This document shows positions 5,348-38,584 of a stretch of 64,000 bases of DNA, one piece after another. The notes beneath the pieces were generated by a model. It saw only the letters and a program-made list of their open reading frames with translations, was not told where the DNA came from and did no database searches. This stretch comes from Nemertoderma westbladi (Eukaryota; Animalia; Xenacoelomorpha), in assembly GCA_032718475.1 (NCBI GenBank), contig JAUCBJ010006695.1:134288-198287 (forward strand). Direction: 5' to 3'. Within the stretch, counting starts at the first letter, position 1. Each line of letters opens with the position of its first letter. The position numbers were made by a program, and so were the translations under genes.

Positions 5348-6628
5348 TGTACGCGCTTTTGAAGACCTTTAGCAGTTTGACCTGCCAAAATTTATATGTC
5401 TTTTGGTTTATAAATATACTTTAGAAGAAGACAAATATTTTATACCAATAAACACAACATTAGCAGAAGCCAGCCTAGTGCGCGTCCATTCACCCGCTGG
5501 ATAATCCCGGGAGACTGGATTCTGTCGGCTTAAATTATTATTGCAGTGAAGCTTACGGTATTGTATTATTCGATTGATCGTTAATAATTAATTTCTGACT
5601 AATATTATTTACTTTCGGGAAATATTAACAGTTCCTTTAGGACGTGGCGCTCTATCTAGGTAAACAGAGATATGACTTATACTAATCACAATGGTAAGTC
5701 GGTAAGGCTTAAGATTCACGTATGAGGCGCATTCTTTAGGAAATGCTTAGTTATCAATCACAATCATGCACACTACCGGTAACACACAATACTGCTCACT
5801 AATTTGCCGACAGTCAATGAATTTTATCATATATAAAGAGAATAGCAACGGACCAATGTAGTGCTTATCAAATAGCATTAAATTCACTACAAACCACAAT
5901 AATATAAGTCGCAATCGCTATATATAACCCGTCTCTCTAACCTGTAGTGTATCAAGAAAATTGGGAAATTTGGGTTCTTTATATATGTTCTCCAAATAAT
6001 ATTCAACCAAACACAATAGTAAACAGCAGTATAATAATGTATATTGAACCGATAATATAAAAACAGAAACCAGTTGATATGAATTGAATTGCATTGAAGT
6101 GATAAGAATTGTTGTTGATAACAGTCATACGCTCTATAATTTTAGCCTACTAATGTTTCTTATAAAAGTATGAAACGAATTGATTCTAGAGCCGTTGTTC
6201 CTGGCCTAGACAGCAATAACAACAAAGTATCAAGAAAAAACTGTAAGACTGAACACACTCCTTATGATCGACCGAAAAGCTACACGTCGACAGGAAAAAT
6301 CTCTCTGATTGGTTCAAGCCAAACAAAGAACCATGCGTCCAATGGCTGTTTCCATGTCAGCAACCAGCTGTTAGATGTCGTAATATGAATCATCACGGCT
6401 AAGCTATGAAGGGTATTTGTCACATTGCAGGTTTTTTGTCTTACCATGTCCGCTAAAACACGTATATAGCAGAATGACTTTTATGTCCGTTAAAACACCT
6501 GTAACGGTACCTTGAGGGCGAGGGGAATATTTATACAGTTAGAGAACCTTTTTAGAGTATTCCAGCGCCTGGGGGGAAACTGGATTGCGAAGCAAAGGGG
6601 CCAGTTATATCCCACAGAAGCTTTTACA
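5348..6628 (-). repeat. 3' LTR of element A
   Basis: Direct repeat of 22766-24046 (offset 17418); only 2 substitutions noticed by eye; preceded on the minus strand by a short purine tract gggagcgg. Confidence 0.97.
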
Positions 6629-6706
6629 CCGCTCCCAGAAAATGGGATTTGAGTCTATAAAATATACAAAATCACAGTTTCTAATATACGTAAATACTCT
6701 AAACAG

Positions 6707-9700
6707 TTAGTCTTTCTTGCGCGGACGGCGTTTACGCAGTTTTTTAAAGCTAGCAAGAGTCCTTTTCTCTTTGGGGCGAGCCACTTTACAAGGAGGGCTA
6801 TAACTCCTGGGTGAAGGGTGCAATATGATTGCATCAGAGGGTGTAGGATTATGGTCGGTGTATCCGCCAGTCGAAGTACCGGGTTGATTGACGTCAACGT
6901 CAGGTGAGAGGGGTCTAACGGCTTTGAGAGCTCGTTTCAAGACAGCCGCTCTTACGGGTCCTTTACGAGTGGTCTGAACGAGGGCCGTGGGTGGACCATA
7001 GGCAGTTAGAAACTTCCGGGGTTTAATGGTCCTTTCCAACTCGCGTTCGCGGGCTCGGTATTCGTAAGGCCTTCGATGTACTTCCTGCAACTCGGGATGT
7101 GAGTTAACAAACAAGTCTCCATAGTCCGGATCCTGACGGATATAATTGATTAAGTTATAGGAATGAAGGTCGCTAGGATTAACACTCCTGAGAAATTTGC
7201 GTACGAATTTAGTTGAAATACATTCTCCGACGCGCTTCAGTAGCTCGTAACTCGATATGCGTGATTTCTGTTCAACAGAAGCGAATAGATAAGGATGGAA
7301 CGCATAAACTCCTTCGTAAGCGCGTCCGGGATAATAGCGATGGCGCGAATCACAATGTAAATCAGCGTTCGCTTCCCAAGCTCTGATGTAACGCAGTGTG
7401 ATCATTTCATCTACGCTTTCTAAATCGTGATTAAAAGGGCAGTCGAAACTAGCATGTCCCTTTAGTTGACAATGGTGACATTGAGTCATAAATTGAGGGC
7501 AAACCGCAAAGATATGCAGGTTATTGAGTCTGCAATATGCGCAATAAATTTCCATAGTTGGTTGTTCTTGGAAATAGGAACAGCGGACGTTGGTGTCCAT
7601 GGGAGTATCGTGGTCTCTCGAGGCGCATAACTGACAACGTTGCCTAGAAACATAGTTGGCATGGCGATAATCGTACGCCGTGAGACACTGTGGGCCTTGA
7701 TACCATTCTATGATGTAATCGTTGTCGCTGGTCCGGGGCGCGATAGGCTGAATCTCTTCAGATTCTAGACATATTGGTTCGTCTTCCAAGTGCATAGCTG
7801 AAGTGGGTGTGTCTGTCTCTTCAGGTGGACCTATCGTCTGAATTTCCACAACAGAGTAACCTGTGGGGATTCGAGGTCTTTGTATAACTGAGGAGTGCAA
7901 GTTCGATATACAAATCTCTTGGAAAATGGCGAATCCAGCGCTATCCAACTTCTCTGCAGCTGAGTTTCTTAGGCTGAGTTTGGTCAAAGCGCGGTCTTTA
8001 AATTGGCTATCCACGTTGCGAAACGGGGTTAAAAATCGCCGGAAACATTCGAAACGGATGAATTTATTATGTTCATCTAGCTTGGCGAGTTTGGTCCCAA
8101 GTATTAATGGATGGGCACGTATAGTACGACTGCACACATCGGCTAGCCAACCGGCAAGTGCGGTGTTTTCAAAGATCGTGTATATAGCTAAGGAGGGACG
8201 GAGTGGAACACTCATGAAGCTATACACGGCGCCAGGTGCGGTCAATGGTCCATCAAAGTATAATCGAGAATAATGGTCTCCGTATACCTGTTGATAGTTA
8301 ATGGGATTTCCGACCTTGAAATTCCATCCGTATTCCTGAAAGGCAAGATGTCCGATGGAAGTTCGTTGCACCTTGGTAATGTTGCTAGACGTATTAGCAT
8401 ACATGGTGCGGAAGAAACCTCGACCTTCTGCCCAGGGAGCAATCAGCTGAGTATCAACGAAAGGGTATGGAATGTCCTCCATATTCCGAAAGTCGTTTTG
8501 GAGATCTCCATAAACAGCTGAGCCGATTTTAAGGATTCTTTTGTTGAACAACATCTCGAGTACGGGCTGGGGTAACATCGATCCATCGATGCCCATGGCC
8601 GGTTTGCGTTCGGTGTCAATGACGTAACGCTGCGCGAGTTCGAATTGTCCATGTCGGAGATTCTTTTGTGTTTCGGTGAGAGTTTCAAAAGAATAATCAA
8701 TCAAGTCGGAACACGCTCGAGTAAACACGTGGGTAGAACCAGCTAATCCGCGGATGTGGATCATGCGCGTAGTTCCTAGCTCTCCGACCGGAACGCTACC
8801 TTCATTATCGTAGGTGACAACTCCATACATCTCAATAACATTAAGAGTTTCATTCCACTCCTTGGTGGCGTTCTCTAGGGTCATCCCTACTGGATGCCAC
8901 AAGGTGGCGCATTGGTTAGCGTCAGGGAGATCACTATACTTCATATGCCGAGTGGTATACGTCTCCACATTTCCAAATCTTTGTATTTTCTCTTCTTCAA
9001 ATAATACATCTAGATTCCAATGGACTAATCGAGTTTTAATAAATCCATCGAGGTTATAAGGAGGTTCTATATCTTTCTCGATTCGAGAAATGTTATATGG
9101 TTTTCTAAATGAGTTTACCTTTACTAACTGATCCAGATGTTTCTGCAATTGTTCAAGTTCGACAATGTCGAGAGGATTTATTAGTGGTAGAAACTTTAAA
9201 TCATGTGTCGGGTCTTCTGGTTTTACCATATAATATTGGGTCAGATTAACGTAATAAGGGTGGTCTTTAATCCCGTAAAACGAGTTCTGTAAAGGTCTAG
9301 CGCGTATGTTGACATCGTGTACCATACGACGGACAAGATCCGCTCGATTGTCCGGAGGTTCAACGAGTATACCGTCAACACGAGCGGCCTCGATCGGCGG
9401 ACGCTGTAACATAGGGGCGTCAGCGATGAGGTTTTGCGATCCTGTACTGATATCAACCGGTTGAGGTTGTATCGTCGCGAAGAGCTTGTCTCCGAAATGT
9501 GGAATCATAGAGGGACGACGAACGGTTTTAGAGTAGAGGTCCGTCATGAGGATTTGAGCTTCAGGTTGGGCTAAAGCGGCTTCTTCTCTTTCTTCCAGTT
9601 TCGTGTGTTTCTCTTCGATTAGATTTTCTTCCGCTTGTCTCTGTAAGCGTTCATCTAAAAATTCTTGTAGAGAATACGTGCGTCCAAGCTCGATGTCTTC

Positions 9701-10960
9701 CTCGAGGTTTTGGATTTCTCTATCGAACTGTGGCAAGGCTAACTCCTTCACCGATTGGACTTGTTGTTGTAATTTACGTTTCTCTAAACAATCTTGTGTC
9801 CCCTTTCCGATTTTCTGTCGAATGGCGTCTAAAGCGTTTCTTATAACACTCTCCTCGACTTCCGTGGCGGGTTGTATCGGGTTTAATCCTGGACGATTGT
9901 AAGGATCAAAGGGCGATATTAGCTGCCTGCGTCCCAATCCGGCTAAGTAGGATGGGCGGATGTCTAACGAACCCACTACCGGAGCACCACCGATTAGTTG
10001 TTCGGGTAACACTAAGTCTTTGAACAGGGAATATAGTTCGGGAGGATCAGTGATACTGTTAGGATCAAGAGTTTGAGGTCTCACTAGGGAATGAGGAGGC
10101 CTGACCGAGTATTCCGGAACTCTGATCATGGGTTTATTCAGTGATCGTTTAAGACGAGCGATCGTGGGTGGTATGTCGAACAGGTTTCGCTCGAAACTCC
10201 CGTAAGTGTAACGCGTAAAACTATGTTTAGCGCAACGTCTCCGCGGATGTTTATGTCTTTCAGTTTGTTGGTTAGGTCTAGGACATTCGTCACAATAATA
10301 CCAAAGAAGTACGTCCTGTAGAGGAAACGCGGGTGTTCGTTCTCCAGTTTTGCAGTATTCTTCCATTTGTTCAAAACTATCCGGGATAACAGGTAGTGGA
10401 CGATCGGCGGTAAGATACATCATAGTGAAATAGAGCCGTTTAAGTTCTAACACAGGGTCGTGATGTATACCTTGAGGATATCGAGTCTCTAAGTTCTGCT
10501 GACTAGCGACATTGAGATAGGTTTCTCTCAAAAACTCTAAGTATTCGTTGAAGTCGATGCGTTTATCCGGTTCTTCAACGTTTTCTCTTTCCAGTCTATT
10601 ACGAATAGAATTTTCGTGATCTATTCTCGGTTTATCGTTACGACTCCACTGGGTATGATATTTAAATAGAACCATTTCCCTTTCTGTATCTTTATCGTCC
10701 GTATCATGTAAATCGATAGGATGGCCGGTCGTTAGGAAGTCCATATACGTACCATTATGATTCGTATAGCGAGTGGTGAATTTTCGATAGTCCAATTCAC
10801 GCGCAAGTTGCTCTTGGGACATCGGCGGTTCGATATAACGACCATCGTCCTCCGTAATGGTTGGATCGGCTTCACCGCGTATTAAGCTATCCACAAATGC
10901 TTGTAAAGGTAGAGTATATCGCTCCCTAATACCAAGATCATCTTCTATTAACTCCATCAT
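6707..10960 (-). CDS. Element A accessory ORF2, 1417 aa: unknown N-terminal region with a Cys/His cluster and coiled coil, DEDDy 3'-5' exonuclease-like domain, three CCHC-type zinc knuckles, basic C-terminal tail
   Basis: Intact ORF. VVTYDNEG (D718/E720, ExoI-like), LFNKRILKIGSAVYGD (D819, ExoII-like), FVDTQ, PLRPSLAIYTIFE (Y927/E931, ExoIII-like); CQLC..H..C, CAYC..H..C, CHHCQLKGHASFDC; KKLRKRRPRKKD. Confidence 0.85.
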   Translation of the reverse strand: MMELIEDDLGIRERYTLPLQAFVDSLIRGEADPTITEDDGRYIEPPMSQEQLARELDYRKFTTRYTNHNGTYMDFLTTGHPIDLHDTDDKDTEREMVLFKYHTQWSRNDKPRIDHENSIRNRLERENVEEPDKRIDFNEYLEFLRETYLNVASQQNLETRYPQGIHHDPVLELKRLYFTMMYLTADRPLPVIPDSFEQMEEYCKTGERTPAFPLQDVLLWYYCDECPRPNQQTERHKHPRRRCAKHSFTRYTYGSFERNLFDIPPTIARLKRSLNKPMIRVPEYSVRPPHSLVRPQTLDPNSITDPPELYSLFKDLVLPEQLIGGAPVVGSLDIRPSYLAGLGRRQLISPFDPYNRPGLNPIQPATEVEESVIRNALDAIRQKIGKGTQDCLEKRKLQQQVQSVKELALPQFDREIQNLEEDIELGRTYSLQEFLDERLQRQAEENLIEEKHTKLEEREEAALAQPEAQILMTDLYSKTVRRPSMIPHFGDKLFATIQPQPVDISTGSQNLIADAPMLQRPPIEAARVDGILVEPPDNRADLVRRMVHDVNIRARPLQNSFYGIKDHPYYVNLTQYYMVKPEDPTHDLKFLPLINPLDIVELEQLQKHLDQLVKVNSFRKPYNISRIEKDIEPPYNLDGFIKTRLVHWNLDVLFEEEKIQRFGNVETYTTRHMKYSDLPDANQCATLWHPVGMTLENATKEWNETLNVIEMYGVVTYDNEGSVPVGELGTTRMIHIRGLAGSTHVFTRACSDLIDYSFETLTETQKNLRHGQFELAQRYVIDTERKPAMGIDGSMLPQPVLEMLFNKRILKIGSAVYGDLQNDFRNMEDIPYPFVDTQLIAPWAEGRGFFRTMYANTSSNITKVQRTSIGHLAFQEYGWNFKVGNPINYQQVYGDHYSRLYFDGPLTAPGAVYSFMSVPLRPSLAIYTIFENTALAGWLADVCSRTIRAHPLILGTKLAKLDEHNKFIRFECFRRFLTPFRNVDSQFKDRALTKLSLRNSAAEKLDSAGFAIFQEICISNLHSSVIQRPRIPTGYSVVEIQTIGPPEETDTPTSAMHLEDEPICLESEEIQPIAPRTSDNDYIIEWYQGPQCLTAYDYRHANYVSRQRCQLCASRDHDTPMDTNVRCSYFQEQPTMEIYCAYCRLNNLHIFAVCPQFMTQCHHCQLKGHASFDCPFNHDLESVDEMITLRYIRAWEANADLHCDSRHRYYPGRAYEGVYAFHPYLFASVEQKSRISSYELLKRVGECISTKFVRKFLRSVNPSDLHSYNLINYIRQDPDYGDLFVNSHPELQEVHRRPYEYRARERELERTIKPRKFLTAYGPPTALVQTTRKGPVRAAVLKRALKAVRPLSPDVDVNQPGTSTGGYTDHNPTPSDAIILHPSPRSYSPPCKVARPKEKRTLASFKKLRKRRPRKKD

Positions 10961-12581: not shown

Positions 12582-15500
12582 TCACGTTAGGGAGTCCCTA
12601 GATGTTTGAGGTATTAGGGAGGTGGTCGTGGGAAGAGTGTCTTGCCTTCCATAGTTCCCGGAGAGTTCTCTGTCTCTTTCCAGTAAACATAAACGACCAA
12701 CTGGGCGATTGAGTTGTTGCGTCTCAAAGATGATGCCTGGTTTCTTGAAGTTACGCCGCATGACGATGAGTTCTACTGAGCGTACTAAACCATCATCTGA
12801 AATGTGTGTCTCGATGATACGACCTGTCTGCCACCGTTTACGCGGGAGGTCTGGATCTACAATAAGCACCATATCTCCGGCGCTGACGTTTTCTTGCTGC
12901 GCAAACCACTTAGTTCGAAGTTGTAGCGTGGGCAGATAATGTTTCTCGAAATGGTCAGCGAAACGACGGGATAGCAACTGCATAAGTTGCCAAGTTCGAC
13001 GGCAGTATTCGTCTCCGTCGGCAATCTCCGATCGTGGGAGCATGGCTACGGGTTTCTTCAGTAGGAAGTGCGCGGGTGTTAGCGCTTCCAGGGAATCGGG
13101 ACTCGATGAGACTGGCATAAGCGGTCTCTCGTTGAGATAGGCAGCGATTTCCTCCATTGACGTCCGCAAAAGTTCGTCGGTGAGATACGCGCGGCATGGC
13201 ACTATAAAGTGAAATGCGGTTTTGACACTTCGAATTAATCTCTCCCAACTTCCTCCCCACCAAGGGGCGTCGGCAGCGTTGAAGGTTCAGCTAGACGCTG
13301 TTATCCTTAGCTGGTCGTCCACCTGTCTTTGGTTCCAGTCCCTCACGTAAGCCTGTATCTCGTTGTTGGCACCTATGAAGTTCGTTCCTTTATCCGATCT
13401 CATGGTATTACTCATCCCGAAGCGAGCGATCTGTCGTCGTAAACTTAAGACGAAGCTGTTAGTAGATAGATCGTTCACCATATCGAGATGGATGGCTCTA
13501 CAAGTCATGCACACGAAGATGACACACCATCTCTTGACTATAGTCCTCGCACGATATACTTCAATAGGGCCAAATAAATCTACACCAGTATTAGTAAAAG
13601 GTGGTTCATAGAAGCTTACTCGTTCCCTAGGTAATTCTGCCTCTCGCTGTGTTAAAGGCCTACTGAATGCTTTCCTACAGGGTATGCAGTTCCTAAGAAC
13701 TTGGTTCAGAGCTCTACGGGGTTTATCAAAATAATAGCGAGTTCGAATTTCGCTAAGAATTCGTTCTCTACCAGCATGGTAAAGTTTACCGTGAACGTCT
13801 ACAATCATCTTGATTTGTACTTCAAGATTTCTAATAAGTATGGGGAATTTGGTGTCAAAGGATACGGGCGCGTTGGTGAGTCTTCCTCCAACACGTATTA
13901 ACCCATCTATCATTGTGCTCGAGAATCGATCCCTTAAGCGCATCTGTGGATTTCTCAACAACAGGAAGTACTTTTCGGAATCCTCATAGCATTGCAGGAG
14001 TCTCAGTATCTGTTTATTTGTTTCTTCATACTCCTGGTGACTAATTTTCTCTTTTAGAAAACGATCAGATATCCTATATTTGGGTAAATTCTTAATAACA
14101 TGAACTTGTGCAGATGTCAATGGAGCGTGATCACTAATGGTCTTCGTCCTGGAGTAGTGATGATGAAAACATCGTCTTAAATATGTGACGGCTTTACAGA
14201 GCCGATTCCAGGAACTGTAATGATGCATTGCTCTCTGCAGCATGGGTGAGATTCCTTGCGAGACGTCTGGTATTCCAGATTTCCAATCTCTATCTCTAAT
14301 TTCCACAACAGACTTATTTGTGTTGAGGGATTGTGGATCCGAAACATCATTCCCGGAAGTGTGTAATACGGATAGATCGATAGTCGGTTTAAATAACTTC
14401 GATTTACTCGCCCGGGTTTTAGGTTTGACTGTCTCCGTTCCCTTGGCTTGTCTAATCTCTGCCGTAGTAAGGTGAGGAGGCCATTCATCTTCTTCCTTGC
14501 TCAGGAAGTCGGGTCCACCCAACCAATCTGGAGTATCTATCAGTTCCTGTGGAGTTGCTCCCCTGGAGGCGATATCGGCTGGATTAATTGTACCAGGGCA
14601 ATGTCTCCATTGATCTATCTTTGTGCGACTAAGAATAATAGCTACTCGGTTAGTAACAAAAACGCTAAACTGACAGACTTCATTGGTGAGATACTCCAAC
14701 ACGAGTAAAGCGTCGGTCCAATAAACCGTTTTCTCCAGTGGATAGTCGATTTGTTCCGTTACGTTCCGGCCGATGGCTGTAGCGTATAAAGCCGCCTTTA
14801 ACTCCGCTCGAGGAACCTTTAGCTTGTTGTTAATCAATGCCTTAGAGGTAACCAAGGCGACTTTGATTCCATCCGGAGTTTCGACTCGCAGATATGCTAC
14901 TATACCTATTCCCATGTCGCTGGCGTCTCCAAACACATGGAGTTGATAGGAATACGTAGGAAGAACATGGCCAAAATATGCACGGGAAATTATAAAGTTC
15001 TCGATGGCAGGTAGAGAATCTTCCCATTTCATCCATTTCTTCAACAATTCTCCCTTAAGCGGATCGTCCCATGAGTGGTTTTCAAGCCACATCTGTTGTA
15101 CTAAACTCCGAGCAATCAATATAACTGGGCTAATAAATCCCAAATGGGTCGAAATAAGTGCTCAGGATACTTAAACAAATCCGTTTGGTCCGAACTGGAT
15201 TATCTCGCTGTTTCAACTGAAAAAACAGGATGTCTCTTTCAGTGTCCCACTTCAAGCCTAGCGTCTTGGTTTCAGGAAGATCGTCCTTTATTAAGTCTAG
15301 GTCTTTCGCTCCGCGATCTTCTACCGGTATGGCTTCCAGAAACTCACGGGAGTTGCTAGTGAATTTCGTCAGTCGAAATCCACCTCTTTTCAAACACTCT
15401 ACCGTTCCTTTCGCGACAGCTATGGCTTCTTCTACTGATGGAAGGGACCTTAAATTGTCGTCCATGTATATATTGCGTTTTATGTTGTCTATCACTTCTT

Positions 15501-18500
15501 TGGAGAAGGAGTCTCAGTTGTCATTCGCAGTGGTTCGCACCATGGAGCAGGCATTGGAAGGGCTTGATATGATCCCAAAAGCCTGGATGGTCATCCAGTA
15601 CTCTACCGGTTTCTGGTTGAGGTCTCCTTCAGGCCACCACAGAAATCTCAGGCTATCTCTATCTCTATCCAGCGCCTTGACTTGTAAGAACATTCCTTCG
15701 ATATCAGAGGCGAACGCGATGGAATATTGTCTTAATCTTAATAGTATTCCCAACAAAGATTGGAGTAAGTTGGGTCCTGGTAACAACTCGGAATTGAGGG
15801 ATTGGCCCATATATAGAGCAGAGCCATCAAATACGACTCGTACTTCATGGGGTTTACCGGGTTTGGGAACGTAATGATGTGTTAAATAATACGTTCTCTC
15901 AGTCACTGGTGTTCCTTCCGGTACTCGCTCCGCGTATCCCTTTGTTATAAATTTCTTCAGCTGAGTTTGGTACATTTCTTTCGCTGAAGCATTAGCTGTA
16001 AGTCGTCGATATAATTGAGCGATTCTTTTCTCTGCCAAGGGTCTGTTATTTATAAATCTAGGTTCTCGTTTTCGAAATGGTAGGCCGATTTCATACCTAC
16101 CTTGGTCCTTTAAAAAACGTGTAGTTGTTTCCTGGATTTGCTTGGCTCTTTCTTCTTCTATCGATAGAGCCTTATCTTATGAATTGGGCTCTACCAGTTC
16201 CTGAGTAAAGAATCGTACAGCTAGTTCGTCCCGAGTTCTAGCGTTGTAGCGCTCTATCTCATCGTTTAGTTCGTCATTGTAAGCGATGGGTTCCGATGGG
16301 TGAATCAGTTGACATAGGTTCACCTGACTTTTCCAATTTTGGTTTTCTGTAAGTAGGTCGATTGTGTTCTCTTCATCGAAGAGTTGGTAGATGTCGTCAT
16401 TATCTGAGGAGTATGGTGTTCCCTCAGTTAGTTCGTCCACCTCACTGCTCTCCACTTCCCAATCGTGTACTTGGTATGTGGGTTCTTGTGGCATTCTCTC
16501 TTCGAGAGTCCTGCGGGAAGGGCCAGTAAAGTACCAACCTACTCTAGTTCTTACTGCATAGGTTTGCAGTGGCTGTGGTTGAGCAGGCCGTTTCTCCAAT
16601 GTTTCAAGCGCCTCATGCGCGTTCTGGCCGATGAGGATTTGCACTCCAGGATAATCTGTCTGGAATCGAGGTATCTCAAGATGTTGGATGCTCTCATCCT
16701 CGTCCCAATTATAAAGGTCTGCTTGAGTAGTAGCGAAGTTCTTTATAGCCACCATTTTTACCGACCTTATACCTTGTGTTCCTAACTTATCCTGGGGGGT
16801 GGACAACACACCTACATAGTAATCTGCCGTTAAGGTAGATTTCCAAACCTGCATAATTCCTGACATATTCAATTTAGTCCGGAATTTGGGTTGTCCAGCA
16901 AAGATATCCTCGGCTAATTCTTGATCGATGAATGTTCCTGTGCTGCCAGAGTCAAGGAGGGCGTTCACTATGTAACTTTTATTAAGACCATGAACTCTTA
17001 CCTGCACCACAGGAAATTCTCTGATTCCTACGTTGGAAGTTGGAGCTTTCCAAGATGGTTGTTTGGCAAAAGTAGTTGGGGGAAACTCATCGTTGGTGAC
17101 CTTTTCATAAGTAAGTGCTCGATACACTGCGGTATTGATTAGATAACAGGATTCGTTGGCGTCGGAGAATTCGTCAGTATAGAATCCTTCCATCTCAGAC
17201 TCCTGATCAGTGTCATTTACATCACTGAATTGGACATGTAGTTCGGGCTCACTTACCTGACTCTGTTTGTCTCGTTCGAACTCACTGTGTAACAAGATGT
17301 GATGTTTCGCGCCACACTTTGCACACTTTATGTCGGAGTAACAGGTTCGCCGTTGGTGTCCTGGTCTGAGGCAATTATAGCATAACCGCTTGTCCCACAC
17401 AACTGCACGTCTGTCTACAAGGGATTTCTTTAGAAATTCAGCACACGTACTCAAACGGTGGGTCCCGTCGCACAGCGCACAGTTAGGTTTTATGTTACTC
17501 ACTTTACCTTGGGTAACTTGATGCACTCTCGTTCTTTCTTCGGGTTTTCTTCGGTGCATTCTGTTAGGAGACTGAGGAGGGGTCTTGGCAACCTGTTCTC
17601 TCCTATCGTTGTTTCGAGCCTTGTATTTACTTACATCTTTTGAGGTTTTGTCGACGTAGTAAGATCGCTCAGTATCTTTCCCGCTGTCCTCTTCTTGAGA
17701 AACTTGGCTTTCGCCGTCGTCAGTGTAACACACCGGTGTTATTCTTCTCCTAGAAGCGGGTTTCTCACTTACCTTATTTTCCGATGTTTTCTCTCTGGAC
17801 TGCTTGATGAGTTGTAGTTTTACCTCACCATCTAAGAAGGACATGAGATCAGCCATGGTAGGACTTCGTCGTTGTTGTTCATTCATGTACAACACTTTCT
17901 TGTCCCAGCGTGTACATACTCCACCCTTTGGTAAAGTAGAGACTACGGCTCCAATAACCATTGAACTCTGATATTCATGAGACTTACCCAACCAGTCCAA
18001 TTGTCTACAGATCTCCTGAATTTCATCGGAAAACTCTATAATCCCGCTACTAAGGAAGTGTCGGGGGGCTACTAATTTTGCATACAAATACTTAGCTATG
18101 TTATCCTTGTTACCATACCTGATGTTTAATGTATCCCATACTTGTCTTAATCCTTCTGGATGTCCAATAAACTTTAACGCCATTAACTTGGGAGGTCCTT
18201 CCAAGCACTTGATGAGGAACCTAAGTTTCTCTCCGTTAGATAGCACAGAGTTCTGTATGCTGTCTTTGTAATATTCGTTGAAAGGTAACCATTTCATCTC
18301 ATCTCCATTGAATTTGACGATCTCTCCCACTTTGACCGCTTGGCGGGCTTCTGTTCTAGCCATCTGCCGCGTAAAGCTTTCTTGGGCCATCGTGTTATTT
18401 AATATCGAATTATCGGTATATAAATTTCTCGGATCAGTATCAGGTCTATAGGGAATATCATTAATAACAGGTCTATAATCACCCTTAATAGGGTTTGCTA

Positions 18501-20604
18501 TAGGAGTTTCTACTTCACTAGCAGTATAGATGCGTGTAGGTTCCACACCTTGCGCATGTAAGACTTCAGACCTAACAGGTTGACACAATGTTACAGGGGG
18601 TATTGGTATTCCCTTTTGTATATTGACTAATTTGTCGCGTTCTAGCGCGATACTTTGCTGCACTTCTTGCAATTCGGCCCTACTTTCCCTTACTGTTCCC
18701 TTAAGCTGGTGGACAGTCTCCTGCATCTGTCCGAGCAGGAGATTCATCCCCCGCCGTCCCTCCTCTACCCACTCAACCGCCGAAGCGGGAGTCGCCAACA
18801 TTGTAGCGGGCTGACGTGGGATGACGGGAGACAAATCTTTGATTTCTCTCTCAGCTTCCAGGACAGGAATGTTCTCATGGACTGTTCTACCGGGTACAGG
18901 CAGTGTAGTACTGTGTAAAGGGAACTTAGAGTTAAGCTCTGGAAGTACAGGGGTCTCTAGCACAGGTGTGACTTTGGGAACGACAGGCCTAATTATTTCA
19001 GGCTCATCAACTATTGTAGGGAGTCTTTTGACCTGAATAGTTTGGTATATGGGTTCCGTACTCGCTAAGTCTGTGCTAGCTAATTGTCTTCTAACAGCTG
19101 GGGGCAAATCAGGCAATTTGTGACGATGAGATGTTTTTCTACGCCTGCTTAGACGAGATCTATTTCCTCCGCCTTCAGGATCGGTGGTTTCACTTTCTTC
19201 CGAGGATGTGTATCCCTGGCGTTTGGGAGTAGATTTTCTCATCATCTGCATGTGACTAGCAGTTAACTGTTTATTTATGTTGTCTTGCGTCTCTTGCAGA
19301 TTTTCCAACTCCAGTTGGGTAGTCTGCTCAAACGCTCTCCGTTCTGCTTCTGCCACTGCTCTTTCCGCCTTTGCTTCTGCCGCCGCTGCTTTTCTTTCTA
19401 CTTCTGCTTCTGCCGTAGCCGCCGCCTTTTGTTCCTCTATCCGTCTTTTCTTTACTTTTTCTTCTTGGACTCTAGCGAGGCGGAGTTTTTCATCAAATTC
19501 TGCTTGGTTAGCAGCTAACATTTCAGCATCGATTGAATCTAACACACGCTGGGTTCCTTCACTATTGGGGGAAAGTCCAGACAGCCGTCTCCTCAATTCT
19601 TCGTCTCCTAGGAATCGCTGATAGTCGGACAGATAAATGTCTATGGCGTCTCTCGCTCGTGGTTTCTCTGAGGTCTCTTCGCCTTCCACTTGAGAAAGGG
19701 TGGCATCGGTTGGTTCTTCATAAGTTAGTCTCTCAGACAGCTGTGATTTCCACTGGTCTGTTTCTTGGATTTGGAGACCTATCCGCTGGAACTAAGTTTT
19801 GACAGCAACCTGCAGTGACGTGTCCTGTCTTCTTTTGGAAGTTTCCTCAAAAGCTGATAGGATTAGTCGAATGCGTAGGGTTCTTTCGCGTACTTGATAT
19901 AGCAGTTCTTCCTGCTCTTGAGGTCCTTGGGGTTGTCGAAACAGTTGTTCTTCTAATCTCTCTAAGGAGCCGAAGAATCCCTGCACATATCCTGCTGCCG
20001 ACCTCTTCCAAACAGCTGGATCCATCGTATCTTTTGCCACTCCCATCCTGTGTATATCTTCCCAAGTAGCCTCGGACAGATCCAACGGGAGTCCGGGTCC
20101 GGGAAAGTTCCATTGTGACTCGACAATAGACATCAATTCTTCCCTGGCGTATCCCGCATAATTATCTTGGGTCGCTCGCTTATTTCTCGCCCAATCTGCT
20201 TGATGTTCCTCCACCGCAATCAATATAGTTGTTAGCACTGCGGCAGGAAGGGTGAGAAGGGGGTCCGAGTAGGCTTTAGACGTCATCTGCAATCCACGTT
20301 CGGGGGTCAGTTCGACAGTATCCGAACTACTGGAGCTATCTGATCGCTGGGAACAAGTTTCTTGACTAGGCTGTTGCTGCTGTGGGACAGCTGCTTCCTG
20401 GTTCCGTTTGACTTGAGCCCGAGTGCCGATGATGGACCTACGGTGTTGGATTAGCTTAGGGTCCGATATCACTACTGGAGGGATGACTTTTCTTTCAGTA
20501 GGAGGTGAGCTGAACTCCTTTCTTAATCGCTCAACACTCCTATCTGTGTCACAGATGGTTGTATCGATTAGGCTGTCTGACAGGGTTTGCTGAGTGTCAG
20601 ACAT
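12582..20604 (-). pseudogene. Element A gag-pol polyprotein, disrupted
   Basis: Gag IVKFNGDEMKW, CALCDGTHRLSTC/CYNCLRPGHQRRTC/CAKCGAKHHILLH; protease LLDSGS; RT SDIEGMFLQV, YMDD; RNase H FGDAS, PRAEL, WTDA; integrase GVDLFGP, SDKGTNF, WERLI. In-frame stops at 19792, 16177, 15514 and 13287, frameshift near 15143. Confidence 0.95.
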
Positions 20605-21944: not shown

Positions 21945-22425
21945 ACAAACCAAAACGCTGGCAGACTACCACCAAGCCTAAATAAACTACTGTATGTGCA
22001 GATTCCAAAACGGTTAGTTAGTATGCGTTCTAACACGGTAGTACGACTTATTCTTTAAGAGGGGATTGACCTTACAGTTATGACTGCCCCAACTTACTAA
22101 CTGGCACTTTATCAGACAAACTCTACACAAGCAGCAATCTCTTCAGACCTAATAATAGCTAGACAACAGTCCAGCCTACAAAATATCTGAGTAATAACTA
22201 TTACGGTACCTGAACAGACCACACAAACAAACACAAGCCAAAACGCTGGCAGAATACTGTCAAGCCTAAATAAACTACAGTATGTGCAGATTCCAAAATT
22301 GTTAGTTAGTATGCGTTCTAACACGGTAGTACGACTTATTCTTTAAGAGGGGATTGACCTTACAGCAATGGCTGCCCCAACTTACTAACTGGCACTCTAT
22401 CGGACAAACTCCACACACGCCGTAA
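21945..22425 (-). repeat. ~290-bp-period duplication in the 5' leader of element A
   Basis: aaaacgctggcaga...gcctaaataaactac...aagaggggattgaccttacag...ctgccccaacttactaactggcac occurs twice; also duplicated in element B (~30415-30880). Confidence 0.85.
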
Positions 22426-22754
22426 TCTCTCCAAACCCAACAACAATCTGACAACAGTCCGGCCTACAATTATCTGAACAATCTGAGCAGACTTACACGT
22501 CTTCAGCTCAATATTAACTTACATGTAAATAAAACCGACAGAAATAAGTAAAATCTCAATAAAAAACCAGGGCTGCAGTCCCTGATTAAATACTAAGACC
22601 TACCGGTATACAATAATCAAAATCGAATAATACTAATGTACTTGTACTGGAAGTACCGGTTGGGACAGTTGGGCCTACTGACCTACAGAAGTACCGGTTC
22701 AGGTTTACCGGTCGACCGGTACTTTCAACTTTATTGCTTACTGCAATAAAGTCA

Positions 22755-22765
22755 ATGACTGTTAT
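22755..22765 (-). promoter_or_regulatory. Primer-binding-site position of element A (ATAACAGTCAT), complementary to LTR site 23536-23546
   Basis: Directly abuts the 5' LTR end; no TGG; exact 11-nt complement inside the LTR. Confidence 0.8.
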
Positions 22766-24046
22766 TGTACGCGCTTTTGAAGACCTTTAGCAGTTTAACC
22801 TGCCAAAATTTATATGTCTTTTGGTTTATAAATATACTTTAGAAGAAGACAAATATTTTATACCAATAAACACAACATTAGCAGAAGCCAGCCTAGTGCG
22901 CGTCCATTCACCCGCTGGATAATCCCGGGAGACTGGATTCTGTCGGCTTAAATTATTATTGCAGTGAAGCTTACGGTATTGTATTATTCGATTGATCGTT
23001 AATAATTAATTTCTGACTAATATTATTTACTTTCGGGAAATATTAACAGTTCCTTTAGGACGTGGCGCTCTATCTAGGTAAACAGAGATATGACTTATAC
23101 TAATCACAACGGTAAGTCGGTAAGGCTTAAGATTCACGTATGAGGCGCATTCTTTAGGAAATGCTTAGTTATCAATCACAATCATGCACACTACCGGTAA
23201 CACACAATACTGCTCACTAATTTGCCGACAGTCAATGAATTTTATCATATATAAAGAGAATAGCAACGGACCAATGTAGTGCTTATCAAATAGCATTAAA
23301 TTCACTACAAACCACAATAATATAAGTCGCAATCGCTATATATAACCCGTCTCTCTAACCTGTAGTGTATCAAGAAAATTGGGAAATTTGGGTTCTTTAT
23401 ATATGTTCTCCAAATAATATTCAACCAAACACAATAGTAAACAGCAGTATAATAATGTATATTGAACCGATAATATAAAAACAGAAACCAGTTGATATGA
23501 ATTGAATTGCATTGAAGTGATAAGAATTGTTGTTGATAACAGTCATACGCTCTATAATTTTAGCCTACTAATGTTTCTTATAAAAGTATGAAACGAATTG
23601 ATTCTAGAGCCGTTGTTCCTGGCCTAGACAGCAATAACAACAAAGTATCAAGAAAAAACTGTAAGACTGAACACACTCCTTATGATCGACCGAAAAGCTA
23701 CACGTCGACAGGAAAAATCTCTCTGATTGGTTCAAGCCAAACAAAGAACCATGCGTCCAATGGCTGTTTCCATGTCAGCAACCAGCTGTTAGATGTCGTA
23801 ATATGAATCATCACGGCTAAGCTATGAAGGGTATTTGTCACATTGCAGGTTTTTTGTCTTACCATGTCCGCTAAAACACGTATATAGCAGAATGACTTTT
23901 ATGTCCGTTAAAACACCTGTAACGGTACCTTGAGGGCGAGGGGAATATTTATACAGTTAGAGAACCTTTTTAGAGTATTCCAGCGCCTGGGGGGAAACTG
24001 GATTGCGAAGCAAAGGGGCCAGTTATATCCCACAGAAGCTTTTACA
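22766..24046 (-). repeat. 5' LTR of element A
   Basis: Minus strand reads TGTAAAAGC...CGCGTACA; direct repeat of 5348-6628. Confidence 0.97.
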
Positions 24047-28793: not shown

Positions 28794-29985
28794 TGTAAAA
28801 GCTTTTGTGGGATAACTGATTCGTTTGCTTTGCTAACCAGTTCCCCCCAGTCGCTGAATACTCTAAAAAGGGATCTATAGCTAAAATAGTGCAAGCTACC
28901 AGCTTATTGGCTGAGGGGCTGTACGAAGGTATCTGGGTTCTGCTCGATCGGCCAACCAGCTTAGGGAGGTTGCCTCAGCCATGCTGTCCGTATCGGCCAA
29001 TAGAATTTGAGTGGGCGTTGATTTTGACCTATCCCAGAGCTACTGAACTGAATTTCCTATCTGTATGCTCATCCTCTGTGTTGGACGGGAGCTTCGGGGA
29101 ATAAGGGTAGTTGGTATCCTCGTATAGTCATGTAGTCACATGTTTCTGTTGTTGTGTTCCCATTTTTCGCCATAACACCGGCTTTTGGAACAACTCTAGC
29201 AAAAACTGCTTAGATTATAGAAAGTATAACTGTTACCGGCGGTACTTACCAACTAATCGGCACACGGCACGGACTTTAATTACTAATCATATTGTTTGTA
29301 CTGCTATTTACCATCAGTTATTAATTGTATCGATTTGTTGATGAAATATTGTCATTTGGAGAATATTGATAAATCACCCAAATTTCCCAATTTTCTTGAT
29401 ACACTACAGGTTAGAGAGACAGGCTATATATAACAATTGCGATTTATATCAATGTGGTGTGTATTGAATCTAATGTTATTTAGTAGACACTACCTGAGTC
29501 AATTGCTGTTCTCTTTATGTGTGATCAAATATACTGACGGTCGGCAGAATAGTGTGCATGATTGTGAGTGTGACTGGTAACAAAGCATTTCCTAAAGAAT
29601 GCGCCTTATACTTTAATCATAAGCCCTATCGTTGCGTTTAGTATAAGTCCTAGCTCTGTTTAAATAGATAGAGCGCCACGTCCTAAAGGAACTGTTAATA
29701 TTTCCCGAAAGTTAATAATATCTGTCAGAAATTACATATTAGCGATCAATCGAATAATACAGTAGGTTTACACTGCAACCTTACACTGCAATAATAAAAT
29801 CTAAGCATCCGAATTCAGCCTCCCGGGTGTATCCATCGGGTGAATGATCGCGCATGGGCTGGCTTCGGCTAATGTTTTGTTTATTAGCATAAAAATATTG
29901 TCGTATGCTAAAGGTGTGTTAATTAACTAAAAGACATATAAATTTTGGCAGGTTAAACTGCTAAAGGTCTTCAAAAGCGCGAACA
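28794..29985 (+). repeat. 5' LTR of element B
   Basis: TGTAAAAGC...CGCGAACA; direct repeat at offset 9791 with ~2 substitutions noticed. Confidence 0.97.
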
Positions 29986-29997
29986 GTAACAGTTATA
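29986..29997 (+). promoter_or_regulatory. Primer-binding-site position of element B (GTAACAGTTATA), complementary to LTR site 29225-29236
   Basis: Abuts the LTR end; exact 12-nt complement TATAACTGTTAC inside the LTR; no TGG. Confidence 0.8.
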
Positions 29998-32238
29998 AAT
30001 CTTATTGCAGTAAGCAATAAGGTTGCAAAATACCGTAGTGACCGGTAAATCTGAACCGGTACTTCTGTAGGTCAGTAGGCCCAACTGCCAGAACCGGTAC
30101 TGCTGTAGGTCCGTAGGTCCAACTGCCAGAACCGGTACTTCTGTAGGTCTGTAGGCCCAACTGTCCTAACCGGTACTGCTGTATCAGTACATTAGTATTA
30201 TTCGAATTTGATTAGTGTATACCGGTAGGTCTTAGTACTTAATCAGGGACTGCAGCCCTGAATTTTTATTGAGATTCTACTTATTTCTGTCGGTTTTATT
30301 TACTAGTAGGCTAATATTGAGCAGAAGGCGTGTGACCCTGCTCAGATTGTTCAGATAATTGTAGGCTGAGCTGCTGTCTGACTGTTGTTGGGTTTGGAGA
30401 GATTACGGCGTGTGTAGAGTTTGTCTGATAAAGTGCCGTTAGTAAGTTGGGGCAGCCATATGCTGTAAGGTCAATCCCCTCTTAAAGAATAAGTCGTACT
30501 ACCGTGTTAGAACGCATACTAACTAACTATTTCAGAATCTGCATATACTGTAGTTTATTTAGGCTTGATCGTAGTCTGCCAGCGTTTTAGCCTGTGTTTG
30601 TTTGTGTGGTCTGTTCAGGTACCGTAATAGTTATTACTCAGATATTTTGTAGGCTGGATTGTTGTCTAGCTATTATTAGGTCTGAAGAGATTGCTGTGTG
30701 TGTGGAGTTTGTCTGATAAAGTGCTGTTAGTAAGTTGGGGCAGCCATATGCTGTAAGGTCAATCCCCTCTTAAAGAATAAGTCGTACTACCGTGTTAGAA
30801 CGCATACTAACTAACCATTTCAGAATCTACACGTACGGTAGTTTATTTAGGCTTGGTGGTAGTCTGCCAGCGTTTAGTTTGTATTTGTTTGAGTATTCTG
30901 TATGGGTAGCGTAATATTTATTATTCAGAGTTTATGCGATTATTCGCAACATTCATGTCCCCAAGTTTATTCCTACAGTAATTGTGCTTGTTATACATAC
31001 CGTTATAGTTAAATTAACCCCGGTACTACACGGGCTGCTTGGCGTAGGACAAGACTGGTGACTTTGTGCTCTGGTCACTCCAGCAGATGCCGTGGTTCTT
31101 TTAACTGTTCAAGTATATTTAACTACTGATTATTTGTTGTACCGGTACTTGTACCTAATTTAGGGTTTAGTGTACAGTGCTTTCCGAAGTAATTAGTGTG
31201 TAGGCAGTATATTTGTGTTGTAAAGTGGTTGATAGGCACATTCGTTAGCTCTATTAACTTCTGGGTAGGAACACTCCGTGATACATAACGTAGTACCTAT
31301 AGCGATACGGTTATAGGTCGTCAGGCGGTGGTATTTTCCTATCTGGACAGTGCAATATATTTACTGCTACTTATTATTTCAAATACCGTAGTACCCTGTC
31401 CGTTGTAATAACCAGAAATCTAACCCTTTGTTAGGCTGGTTTGTAGACTTCCTGTAAAATTACCCTAAAAATTTCGTACGTAATATTTTTGTTGTGTTTT
31501 AATTAGAGAATTAATCTCACCCGTATCGTAAGTAATTTGTAGTATTAAGTAACTTAGGTAAATTAGAATTATCTGTTTTAGTGTCAAATAAGTAGCACTT
31601 CACTGAGAGCGCACAGCTTTTGTGTAGTGATTACTTCCCAGAAATAATAACATTTATTTCAAATATTGACAAAACCCATTTTAAACGGGTATATAAATAT
31701 TATAAATCAACTCAAACGATTTATAAATAGTAGGCCTGCCATACAACAACTAGGTCTCCATATCAGTTGGACTACTGCTTAAATAACGGTAATAAAGTAA
31801 GTAAAGTAACCAAGTAACCCTAACATTCAGAAATTCAATTATTTTAAAATAATTGACATACCGGTATTTACAATAGGCTTATTATATTTATTCGATAAAT
31901 TTAGGCTGAAATCATACCGGTACTCTGTAATTAATTCTAGTCCAGAATTATACTTATATACTATAAGTGTAAGCTGCATACCGGTATTCACGATAGGCCT
32001 ATTATATATTTATATATATTTGTGCTAAAATTATATACCGGTACTCTGTGACAAATCTAGTCTGTAATAATACTTATATATATACTATAAGCATACCGGT
32101 ATTCTAATATATTGTATATATATCACGTTACACCGAGTAACGGTATCGGTAATTAATCGCTAGGCTTGCAGTGATACTGAATTACTAGACTTGCTTTAAC
32201 TGTAATATAGCAGTAGGCATTCAACTGTACAAACAAAA

Positions 32239-35200: not shown

Positions 35201-35433
35201 GTGGATCCGACTCCTTAAGTAAAGAAGAAGAAGAATGGCCTCCTCATCTTACCACGGCAGAAATTAGACAGGCCAAGGGAGCGGAGAAAGTAACACAACA
35301 ACTCAATCGCCCAGCTAGTCGTTTATGTTTACTGGAAAGAGACCGAAAACTGTCCGGAAACTATGGAAGGCAAGATACTCTTCCTACGGCCGCTTCCCTG
35401 GTCCGACGAATGTCTGGGGACTCCATAACGTAA
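32239..35433 (+). CDS. Element B Gag-protease ORF (1064 aa) fused in frame to short RNase H-region and integrase-tail remnants
   Basis: Same Gag knuckles and LLDSGS as A; after DNDDI it jumps to DQWRHC...NPAD, then to TQQLNRP...; no YxDD and no DDE core. Confidence 0.93.
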   Translation: MSDTKRALSDSLLEGVRMSLRLGQGLERKMAEAMATAEAKRKAAEAMATAEAERKAAETMATAEAERKAAEAMATVEAERKIETPVLPEPAYKFPLYSTKLPVPSRTVPESEPVLDAERDIKNLSPVVSRSPATTLATPASAVEWVAEGRREMGLLLEQLREHCLCSSQQVREMEETVQQLKGTVRESRLELQKVQQSIALERDKLVNLQKGIPPPPVTMCQPVRSEVSHAQGVEPTRIYTASEVETPIVNPIQGDYKPVDNNIPYRPDHNPRNLYTDNSIFNNTMAQESFTRQMARTEARQAVRVGEIVKFNGDEMKWLPFNEYYKDNIQNSVLSNGEKLRYLIECLEGPPKLMALKFIGHPDGLRQVWDTLNIRYGNKDNIAKYLYAKLVAPRHFLSSGIIEFSDEIQEICRQLDWLGKSHEYQSSMVIGAVVSTLPKGGVCTRWDKKVLYMNEQQRRSPTMADLMSFLDSEVKLQLIRQSREKTSENKVSEKPVSRRKIIPVCYTDDGESQASQEEDSGKDTAKSYYDNKTYKDVSKYKSRTSDRREQVTTTPPTSPKRIHGRKPEERTRVQNVNQVKVSNIKPKCALCDGPHRLSACAEFLKKSLVDRRTVLWNKRLCYNCLRSGHQRRTCYSDIKCAKCGAKHHILLHSEFERDKLSQVSEPELHVQFSDVNDTDQESEMEGFYTDEFSDANESCYLINTAVYRALTHEKDTNNEFPPTTFAKQPSWKAPTSNVGIREFPVVQVRVHGLNKSYIVNALLDSGSTGTFIDQELAEDIFAGQPKFRTKLNMSGIMQVWKSTLTADYYVGVLSTPQDKLGAQGIRSVKMVAIKNFATTQADLYNWDEDESIQHLKIPRSQTDYPGVQILIGQNAHEALETLEKRPAQPQPLQTYAVRTRVGWYFTGPSRRTLKERLPQQQVYQVKGEVESSDVDDPTEGTPYSSDNDDINSNVDQWRHCLGTINPADIDSRGATPQELIDTPGWLGGSDSLSKEEEEWPPHLTTAEIRQAKGAEKVTQQLNRPASRLCLLERDRKLSGNYGRQDTLPTAASLVRRMSGDSIT

Positions 35434-38506: not shown

Positions 38507-38584
38507 CTGTTTAGAGTATTTACGTATATTAGAAACTGTGATTTTGTATATTTTATAGACTTAAATCCCATTTTCTGGGAGCGG

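What the first reader, a model, noticed from the sequence alone, without database searches (positions are those of the whole stretch)
6707..10960. Extra 1417-aa ORF in the env position encodes a DEDDy exonuclease-like domain plus three zinc knuckles
Seen: an intact sense ORF between pol and the 3' LTR with no signal peptide or transmembrane anchor. It has D-x-E (718/720), KIG-x5-D (819), a DTQ motif and PL-x6-Y-x3-E (927/931, E in place of the usual D) at ~8130-8860, CCHC-type knuckles at 7439-7636 and an NLS-like basic tail. Known: this motif order and spacing is that of the RNase D/WRN-exo/EXD/Mut-7 group, some members of which act in small-RNA pathways; from memory, DEDDy ORFs have been reported in bdelloid rotifer retroelements. 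Inference: a captured RNA-binding nuclease that could counter piRNA/siRNA silencing, trim the self-primer 3' end, or proofread an unusually long genome. Its co-occurrence with the self-priming signature suggests a distinct replication system.
Basis: partly seen in the sequence, partly recalled or inferred. Interest (0 to 1): 0.85.

Follow-up and report, generated by a model that had tools for sequence, protein, structure and literature searches.

The report
Retrotransposon carrying its own exonuclease gene
An unusually long (18.7 kb) BEL/Pao jumping gene carries an intact, conserved extra gene whose middle part is related to RNase D/WRN-type exonucleases and which likely binds and trims RNA ends, and its primer site pairs with its own LTR, so it likely primes itself; neither feature turned up for this family in our literature searches.

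Summary
An unbroken 1417-aa ORF3 (10960..6707, minus strand) lies between pol and the 3' LTR of an 18.7-kb BEL/Pao element. A DEDDy profile hits aa 795-844 (14.5 bits; best of 1000 shuffles 2.2), RNase D is NCBIfam's top hit, and 24 of 30 Atlas hits carry PF01612. Only the Exo II/DTQ core is statistically secure. D718/E720 is the preferred Exo I site (9 of 12 alignments); Y927/E931 is weak (3 of 12), so catalysis is unproven. Only one of the three knuckles has canonical spacing. ORF3 is under purifying selection (dN/dS 0.155; 32 of 40 shown variants silent). The primer site pairs with the element's own LTR (11 and 12 nt in two copies, two compensatory changes), as in Tf1. No homolog of ORF3 was found. 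This copy's gag-pol is broken; a neighbouring copy lacks the exonuclease part. DEDDy ORF3s are published for bdelloid Ty3/gypsy elements; I found no report for BEL/Pao. Most likely role: a trans-acting RNA 3'-end nuclease against small-RNA silencing (about 0.35). A link to self-priming is unsupported. Verdict: new variant of a known kind.

The parts
6707..10960 (-). ORF3, 1417 aa, unbroken
   Evidence: dN/dS 0.155 over aa 1058-1417 and 0.46 over aa 1-125 against copy 2
8126..8878 (-). DEDDy-type exonuclease domain, about aa 695-945, with two insertions of about 40 aa
   Evidence: limits approximate
8429..8578 (-). Statistically secure core, aa 795-844: Exo II (KIG-x5-D819) and DTQ; aligns to RNase D rows with almost no gap
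8801..8809 (-). Likely Exo I D718-x-E720
   Evidence: 9 of 12 unforced alignments; best block site but 48 of 150 shuffles as good
8168..8206 (-). Candidate Exo III PL-x6-Y927-x3-E931 (Glu where the family has Asp)
   Evidence: 3 of 12 alignments; 35 of 150 shuffles as good; pLDDT under 50
7439..7636 (-). Three Cys/His knuckles, aa 1109-1174: one canonical, one near-canonical, one long
6710..6745 (-). Basic C-terminal tail, NLS-like (inferred from composition)
8879..10960 (-). N-terminal about 690 aa of unknown kind: Cys/His cluster aa 223-246, Pro-rich stretch, charged low-Pro stretch aa 366-470 (possible coiled coil)
   Evidence: no hit; composition
22766..24046 (-). 5' LTR, 1281 bp, TG..CA; target duplication AATAG
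5348..6628 (-). 3' LTR, 2 differences from the 5' LTR
22755..22765 (-). Primer-binding site, 11 nt, directly after the LTR, no TGG start, complementary to the LTR
23536..23546 (-). Candidate self-primer in the LTR (would be the transcript's 5' end; start site not shown)
22725..22755 (-). 13-bp hairpin next to the primer site, 11-bp in copy 2
   Evidence: z -3.4 and -2.5 for the 101-nt stretches
16177..20604 (-). gag-protease (DUF1759, knuckles, Asp protease), one in-frame stop inside and one at its end
12582..16176 (-). pol: RT, RNase H (Peptidase_A17), integrase, DUF5641; two in-frame stops and a frameshift near 15130-15160
6629..6637 (-). Polypurine-tract-like 9-mer before the 3' LTR; second copy at 11637-11645
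28794..39776 (+). Copy 2: 11-kb deletion derivative, LTRs 2 of 1192 different, open 1064-aa gag-protease frame, no RT/integrase, ORF3 lacking about aa 126-1057 and frameshifted

Best explanation
ORF3 is an intact, conserved accessory gene of a BEL/Pao retrotransposon whose middle domain is related to RNase D/WRN-type exonucleases, and it likely works in trans as a zinc-knuckle-guided 3'-to-5' RNA nuclease that would blunt the host's small-RNA silencing of the element. Shown: frame, position, DEDDy-related core, knuckles, purifying selection. Inferred, step by step: (1) it is made from its own spliced or internally started message, since it lies 1.6 kb behind pol; (2) the basic tail takes it to the nucleus; (3) the knuckles hold single-stranded RNA and feed its 3' end to the DEDDy site, as in trypanosome RNase D; (4) D718, E720, D819 and E931 bind the metals; (5) the substrates are small silencing RNAs or their precursors. 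The fold I put at 0.95, an active site at about 0.55, the anti-silencing target at about 0.35 overall. Self-priming is likely a separate property, carried out by the RT's RNase H as in Tf1.
For: Fold: profile hit 14.5 bits, E 7.6e-7 for one sequence, best of 1000 shuffles 2.2; hhalign 41.8 against a best of 22.7 in 150 shuffles; RNase D (TIGR01388) is the top NCBIfam hit, E 0.047 whole protein, 0.0086 domain; 24 of 30 Atlas hits in PF01612-bearing clusters at 0.92. Constraint: dN/dS 0.155, Fisher p 4e-12, gag-protease 0.22; 32 of 40 shown variant sites in the domain silent against at most 0.29 expected, 11 silent and 1 conservative in aa 713-736, none at the four acidic residues or Y927. Architecture: TbRND has a DEDD domain plus four CCHC knuckles that raise RNA binding and cleavage (PMC7797062, passages). 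Accessory DEDDy ORFs recur in unrelated retroelements, including Athena elements, which argues for a role not tied to one priming chemistry; that paper names Mut-7, EXD1 and Maelstrom as silencing-pathway relatives (PMC5408684).
Against: No substrate, localisation or expression data. Exo III is unresolved: Y927/E931 in 3 of 12 alignments, WRN-heavy alignments put Exo I at aa 759-763 without its first Asp and Exo III near 893-895, split profiles of Exo I and Exo III found nothing significant, and the C-terminal half of the domain has pLDDT under 50. The fourth acid would be Glu. Pfam and PDB sequence searches gave no exonuclease hit. Only 40 of 100 variant sites were shown, the best supported ones. 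In bdelloids DEDDy ORF3 showed no clear link to copy number and the elements still draw small RNAs (PMC5408684). Host and its small-RNA pathways are unknown.
Confidence: 0.35

Rival explanations
1. The domain is a catalytically weak or dead DEDDy fold used as an RNA-binding adaptor (like EXD1, Egalitarian or Maelstrom), which with the knuckles binds, moves or shields the element's RNA or decoys host silencing factors.
For: Exo III divergent and unplaced, Glu for Asp, two insertions; one alignment register lacks the first Asp; inactive DEDD derivatives in piRNA biogenesis are named in PMC5408684.
Against: Four acidic residues and a Tyr occur in canonical order, with gap-free spacing F-x3-PL-x6-Y-x3-E at Exo III; silent changes cluster round D718/E720; bdelloid ORF3s also carry a D-to-E change and are read as possibly active.
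Confidence: 0.27
2. An active nuclease that processes the element's own RNA 3' ends (transcript maturation, turnover of defective or spliced RNAs) and has nothing to do with host silencing.
For: Same fold and selection evidence; this is the first role proposed for bdelloid ORF3s (PMC5408684); RNase D-type enzymes trim structured RNA.
Against: Most BEL/Pao elements manage with one to three genes and host capping and polyadenylation (PMC8742986); no step is known to need it.
Confidence: 0.17
3. ORF3 matures the self-primer: after the RNA loop is cut, it trims an unpaired 3' overhang back to the 11-12-bp primer duplex.
For: Both features sit in one element and both depart from the family profile; single-strand-specific 3' trimmers stop at duplexes (own knowledge).
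Against: Tf1/sushi, Tcn1 and TAR elements are described as self-priming with no extra nuclease mentioned (PMC4600332, PMC6317226, bioRxiv 2022.12.06.519325; passages); the cited Levin 1996 title assigns the cut to RNase H; DEDDy ORFs also occur in Athena elements; the basic tail fits the nucleus better than the particle (inference).
Confidence: 0.12
4. ORF3 proofreads or edits cDNA for an unusually long genome.
For: 18.7 kb against 4.2-10 kb for the family (PMC8742986, PMC3118150); WRN/EXD2-type relatives act on DNA; ORF3 falls among WRN/EXD-type rows (long branch).
Against: Separate gene with RNA-type knuckles and no sign of packaging; a quarter of the length is ORF3 itself; long LTR elements without such a gene exist (Ogre; recalled, not checked).
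Confidence: 0.06
5. ORF3 is passively carried host cargo with no use to the element.
For: No function shown; copy 2 moved recently without the domain.
Against: Purifying selection between element copies as strong as on gag; no close cellular homolog found; no introns.
Confidence: 0.03

Closest known systems
DEDDy ORF3 of bdelloid Juno and Vesta (Ty3/gypsy) elements and Athena/Terminon retroelements (PMC5408684)
   Same: Separate ORF in the env position, RNase D-like DEDDy domain, no TM segment, one D-to-E change in the acid set, function untested.
   Different: Here the carrier is BEL/Pao; the protein is 1417 aa with three knuckles, an unknown 690-aa N-terminus and a basic tail; the change would be in Exo III (DEDE) whereas the paper writes DEED.
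Trypanosoma brucei RNase D (TbRND; PDB 7c42/7c45; PMC7797062)
   Same: DEDD exonuclease domain followed by tandem CCHC knuckles; model for how knuckles feed RNA to the site.
   Different: Cellular mitochondrial gRNA trimmer, four regular knuckles about 30 aa after the domain; here three irregular knuckles about 160 aa after it. No direct sequence hit.
RNase D / WRN-exo / EXD2 / Mut-7 (PF01612, TIGR01388)
   Same: Exo II KIG-x5-D and DTQ blocks, predicted strand-helix order over aa 695-850.
   Different: Far below curated cut-offs (15 bits against 299 for TIGR01388; no Pfam hit); two insertions; Exo III atypical; subfamily not assignable.
Tf1/sushi self-priming Ty3/gypsy elements (PMC4600332; bioRxiv 2022.12.06.519325), also Tcn1 and TAR (PMC6317226)
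   Same: Primer site next to the 5' LTR complementary to a stretch inside the LTR, no tRNA-type site.
   Different: BEL/Pao pol; pairing partner lies 770 nt upstream of the primer site; transcription start and three-duplex 'pretzel' not shown.
Belpaoviridae / BEL-Pao (PMC8742986, PMC3118150)
   Same: gag-PR-RT-RH-IN order, DUF1759, Peptidase_A17, DUF5641, TG..CA LTRs, 5-bp target duplication.
   Different: 18.7 kb against 4.2-10 kb; no 18-nt tRNA primer site; third gene is not env-like.

Membership tests
BEL/Pao (Belpaoviridae) | LTR-flanked gag-pol in PR-RT-RH-IN order with BEL-specific domains | tested here: met
   DUF1759 E 4e-12, Peptidase_A17 E 2e-23, Integrase_H2C2, DUF5641 E 3e-21 in that order; YMDD RT motif in the translation
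BEL/Pao (Belpaoviridae) | 18-nt primer site complementary to host tRNA-Arg or -Gly (typical, per ICTV profile) | tested here: not met
   site begins ATAAC/GTAAC, not TGG, and pairs with the LTR; host tRNA set not available
BEL/Pao (Belpaoviridae) | Placement in a named clade by RT/RH/IN phylogeny | not tested
   no reference set fetched
DEDDy exonucleases (PF01612/RNase D group) | Exo II Asp and DTQ block in RNase H-like fold | tested here: met
DEDDy exonucleases (PF01612/RNase D group) | Exo I D-x-E on the first strand | tested here: inconclusive
   D718/E720 in 9 of 12 alignments and on a predicted strand, but not significant alone; rival register
DEDDy exonucleases (PF01612/RNase D group) | Exo III Y-x3-D | tested here: inconclusive
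   best site reads Y-x3-E (927/931); 3 of 12 alignments; pLDDT under 50
DEDDy exonucleases (PF01612/RNase D group) | Curated family score | tested here: not met
   no Pfam hit; TIGR01388 15.4 bits against cut-off 299
DEDDy exonucleases (PF01612/RNase D group) | Two-metal 3'-to-5' exonuclease activity | not testable with these tools
   needs an assay
Bdelloid retroelement DEDDy ORF pool | Clusters with Juno/Vesta/Athena DEDDy ORFs | not testable with these tools
   none of those proteins was returned
Tf1-type self-priming | Primer site complementary to an LTR stretch | tested here: met
   11 and 12 nt, two compensatory pairs, chance 14 and 5 of 20000; pair probabilities 0.84-1.0 over nt 2-11 in a fold that assumes this start
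Tf1-type self-priming | That stretch is the transcript's 5' end and is cut by RNase H | not testable with these tools
   no raw RNA reads available
env-like ORF3 | Signal peptide, TM anchor, viral glycoprotein homology | tested here: not met
   hydropathy maximum 1.2; no Pfam glycoprotein hit

The most novel reading that the evidence does not exclude
A giant, tRNA-independent BEL/Pao lineage that encodes its own active DEDE exoribonuclease: either the first retrotransposon-encoded nuclease that destroys or mis-trims host piRNA/siRNA, or a dedicated primer-maturing enzyme that makes its self-priming a second, two-enzyme route to starting reverse transcription. Copies with dead gag-pol but intact ORF3 and copies with open gag but dead ORF3 would share parts in trans.
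Probability: 0.2. Interest if true: 0.85.

Novelty: new variant of a known kind. Interest (0 to 1): 0.62.

Why it matters
DEDDy accessory genes in retroelements were described in bdelloid rotifers and their function is open. An intact, selected version in a different LTR superfamily, fused to RNA-type knuckles, suggests repeated recruitment of the same fold and offers a clonable protein for the open question whether animal retrotransposons encode suppressors of small-RNA silencing. The self-complementary primer site, backed by compensatory changes, would extend tRNA-independent priming to BEL/Pao, which the ICTV profile lists as tRNA-primed, and the element is nearly twice the family's stated maximum length.

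Tried and rejected
No whole genome is held, so copy number, autonomous copies and host paralogs were not examined. Homolog searches for ORF3 found none: aa 640-1240 among 779-2480-aa proteins (0 of 3081 candidates) and shorter ones (0 of 2970), viral contigs, metagenome contigs, plasmids (one E 8 match), exact look-up (0 of 4), earlier findings (none). The full HMMER search of cluster representatives never ran, so absence of relatives is not shown. PDB sequence searches gave nothing for the domain and only a faint Air2 knuckle match, E 9.4. Single-sequence AlphaFold failed (pLDDT 31; no fold match). The second model used 47 bacterial DEDDy rows covering only aa 695-843: its matches (EXD2 Z 11.2, rmsd 4.8, 114 aligned, model range 1-158; Foldseek best E 1.6e-3) are partly circular and do not reach Exo III. 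Split profiles for Exo I and Exo III were not significant. The tree (54 rows, 108 columns; a hand-picked 53 of the 111 aligned reference rows) left ORF3 on a 3.77 branch. Atlas found no usable hit for aa 130-690. No RNA holder listed; run X1 is only guessed to be RNA, so nothing is said on expression. Intact ORF3 beside five breaks in gag-pol is not significant by itself (P 0.12). An alternative genetic code was rejected: the in-frame stops are TAG, TAA, TGA and TGA. An env role was rejected. Literature searches for DEDDy/exonuclease ORFs in BEL/Pao and for self-priming in BEL/Pao returned no such report in the listings or in the passages read; subscription journals, Repbase and GyDB were not searchable, and the sequence supplements of PMC3118150 and PMC5408684 were not opened and may hold relatives.


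Full report
Setting. The finding lies in an LTR element on the minus strand, 24046 to 5348, 18.7 kb. Its LTRs are 1281 bp, TG..CA, differ at 2 sites and are flanked by the 5-bp duplication AATAG. Pfam gives DUF1759, Peptidase_A17, Integrase_H2C2 and DUF5641 in gag-PR-RT-RH-IN order, which makes it BEL/Pao. The ICTV profile gives 4.2-10 kb and an 18-nt tRNA primer site for the family (PMC8742986, whole text; length also in PMC3118150, passages). The gag-pol region of this copy carries four in-frame stops of three kinds and a frameshift; about 0.3 stops would be expected from the LTR age, so the copy was probably not autonomous when it inserted. A second copy on the plus strand (28794-39776) has an open gag-protease frame but lacks RT, integrase and about aa 126-1057 of ORF3. 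No genome is held; the host is taken to be an animal from the family's range.

Observation. ORF3 runs 10960..6707, 1417 aa, unbroken. The knuckles are one canonical, one with a five-residue and one with a nine-residue spacer.

Is it a DEDDy domain? Pfam and PDB sequence search gave no exonuclease hit, and no homolog was found. Four other tests agree. The Atlas returned 24 of 30 hits in PF01612-bearing clusters at 0.92 with 165 shared features; the two best rows were unnamed clusters, and shuffled proteins reach 0.9 in 4-10 of 100 cases by the tool's own note. NCBIfam's best hit is RNase D, E 0.047 for the whole protein and 0.0086 for the domain, far below the cut-off. A profile of 63 WRN/EXD/RNase D-type domains, kept at under 55% identity from 119 domains, hits aa 795-844 at 14.5 bits; the best of 1000 shuffles scored 2.2, and hhalign scored 41.8 against a best of 22.7 in 150 shuffles. 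With 111 mixed reference rows the Exo II block and the DTQ block each beat 150 of 150 shuffles. The relationship is secure for this core.

The catalytic set is less secure. The best Exo I site is 714-721 (D718, E720) and the best Exo III site 914-935 (Y927, E931), but 48 and 35 of 150 shuffles do as well, and split profiles found neither. Unforced MAFFT runs put Exo I on D718/E720 in 9 of 12 and Exo III on Y927/E931 in 3 of 12; WRN-heavy sets choose another register with no first Asp. AlphaFold failed on the single sequence. With 47 bacterial rows covering aa 695-843 it gave pLDDT 82-93 over aa 795-844, strands at 714-725, 729-738 and 779-782, and under 50 for nearly all of aa 848-955; the structural matches are all DEDD-fold nucleases, best EXD2 at Z 11.2, rmsd 4.8, 114 aligned, but they are partly built in by the alignment and stop before Exo III. 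A tree could not place the domain. So: DEDDy-related, shown; active DEDE site, plausible and unproven.

Selection. Against copy 2, dN/dS is 0.155 over aa 1058-1417 (p 4e-12), 0.46 over aa 1-125 (p 0.10) and 0.22 for gag-protease; copy 2's ORF3 is already decaying, so constraint is if anything underestimated. In run X1, 789 contigs cover all 30 bins of the element. Twelve cover the exonuclease region with no indel listed; of 100 variant sites 40 were shown, and 32 of these are silent against at most 29% expected; none touches D718, E720, D819, Y927 or E931. The shown sites are the best-supported ones, which may favour silent changes.

Self-priming. Directly after the 5' LTR stand 11 nt complementary to LTR positions 23546-23536; in copy 2, 12 nt complementary to 29225-29236. 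Two pairs differ between the copies on both sides, and chance is 14 and 5 in 20000. A fold from that position to the primer site keeps the duplex with high probability. This is the Tf1 arrangement (PMC4600332, PMC6317226, bioRxiv 2022.12.06.519325; passages). Two copies of one family give one comparison, and the transcription start is not shown.

How it likely works. ORF3 lies 1.6 kb behind pol, so it likely has its own message; ORF3s are usually made from spliced RNA (PMC5408684). Domain plus tandem knuckles matches TbRND, where the knuckles raise RNA binding and cleavage (PMC7797062, passages). I take the protein to be a trans-acting RNA 3'-end nuclease with a nuclear signal, most likely aimed at small-RNA silencing (0.35). 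Rivals: inactive RNA-binding adaptor (0.27), processing of the element's own RNA (0.17), primer trimming (0.12), proofreading (0.06), passive cargo (0.03). The primer link is weak because self-priming is described for other groups without an extra nuclease and DEDDy ORFs also sit in Athena elements. All steps after fold and selection are inference.

Comparison with what is known. PMC5408684 (parts 1-3 of 5 and figure legends read; figures and supplement not seen) reports RNase D-like DEDDy ORF3s, with DEDD changed to DEED, in Juno and Vesta Ty3/gypsy elements and in Athena elements, function untested; PMC6431247 and PMC6338049 (passages) repeat this. PMC13524379 (passages) has no mention of exonuclease, DEDD or self-priming. 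Searches for a BEL/Pao case of either feature showed none in listings or passages; the library lacks most subscription papers and Repbase, so this is not proof of absence. Searches served for analogues. Earlier findings of the scan had nothing.

Verdict. Real and selected; the kind (DEDDy ORF3 in an LTR element) is known, the carrier superfamily, the size, the knuckle fusion and the self-complementary primer site appear new. New variant of a known kind, interest 0.62; most novel reading probability 0.2, interest 0.85.

Noticed in passing
window 12582-20604 (-): gag-pol of copy 1 has four in-frame stops and one frameshift although its LTRs differ at 2 of 1281 sites; about 0.3 stops would be expected after insertion (P 3e-4 for four), so it was probably moved in trans or its LTRs were homogenised.
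   Followed up: partly
window 28794-39776 (+): Copy 2 is a deletion derivative with an open 1064-aa gag-protease frame; two of its deletion joints (7786-10591 and 14617-16394 in copy 1 coordinates) also stand in contigs of run X1, so it is a spreading non-autonomous subfamily.
   Followed up: partly
window 11637-11645 and 36377-36385: The 9-mer just before the 3' LTR recurs once between pol and ORF3 in both copies (4 matches against 0.11 expected): a candidate central polypurine tract for a long genome.
   Followed up: partly
window 10961-12581 vs 35434-37058: The 1.6-kb non-coding spacer is 91% identical between the copies while silent sites diverge by dS about 0.1-0.2; it may hold an internal promoter or splice signals; one acceptor-like site at 11176.
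   Followed up: no
window 23546-24046 vs 28794-29225: The LTR part upstream of the candidate self-primer is largely unalignable between the two copies (35-53% in 150-column bins after the first) while the far end is 81-96% alike: U3-like replacement, consistent with a start near the self-primer.
   Followed up: partly
window 21891-22466 and 30351-30929: Two tandem copies of a 288-bp unit in the 2-kb leader of both elements.
   Followed up: no
window 3975-5349 and 24040-24431: Copy 1 is inserted in a palindromic, 20-bp-repeat-rich element that looks like a MITE.
   Followed up: no
window 26964-28436 and 45541-47013 (+): Two intronless 490-aa ORFs that read like cytochrome P450s by eye, 94% identical, flanking copy 2; GPCR-like ORFs at 57553-59192 (not scanned).
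   Followed up: no
window 8168-8248 (-): The Exo III region reads as two 14-residue units (PL-x6-Y at 905 and 919), a possible internal duplication of which only the second ends in an acid.
   Followed up: no
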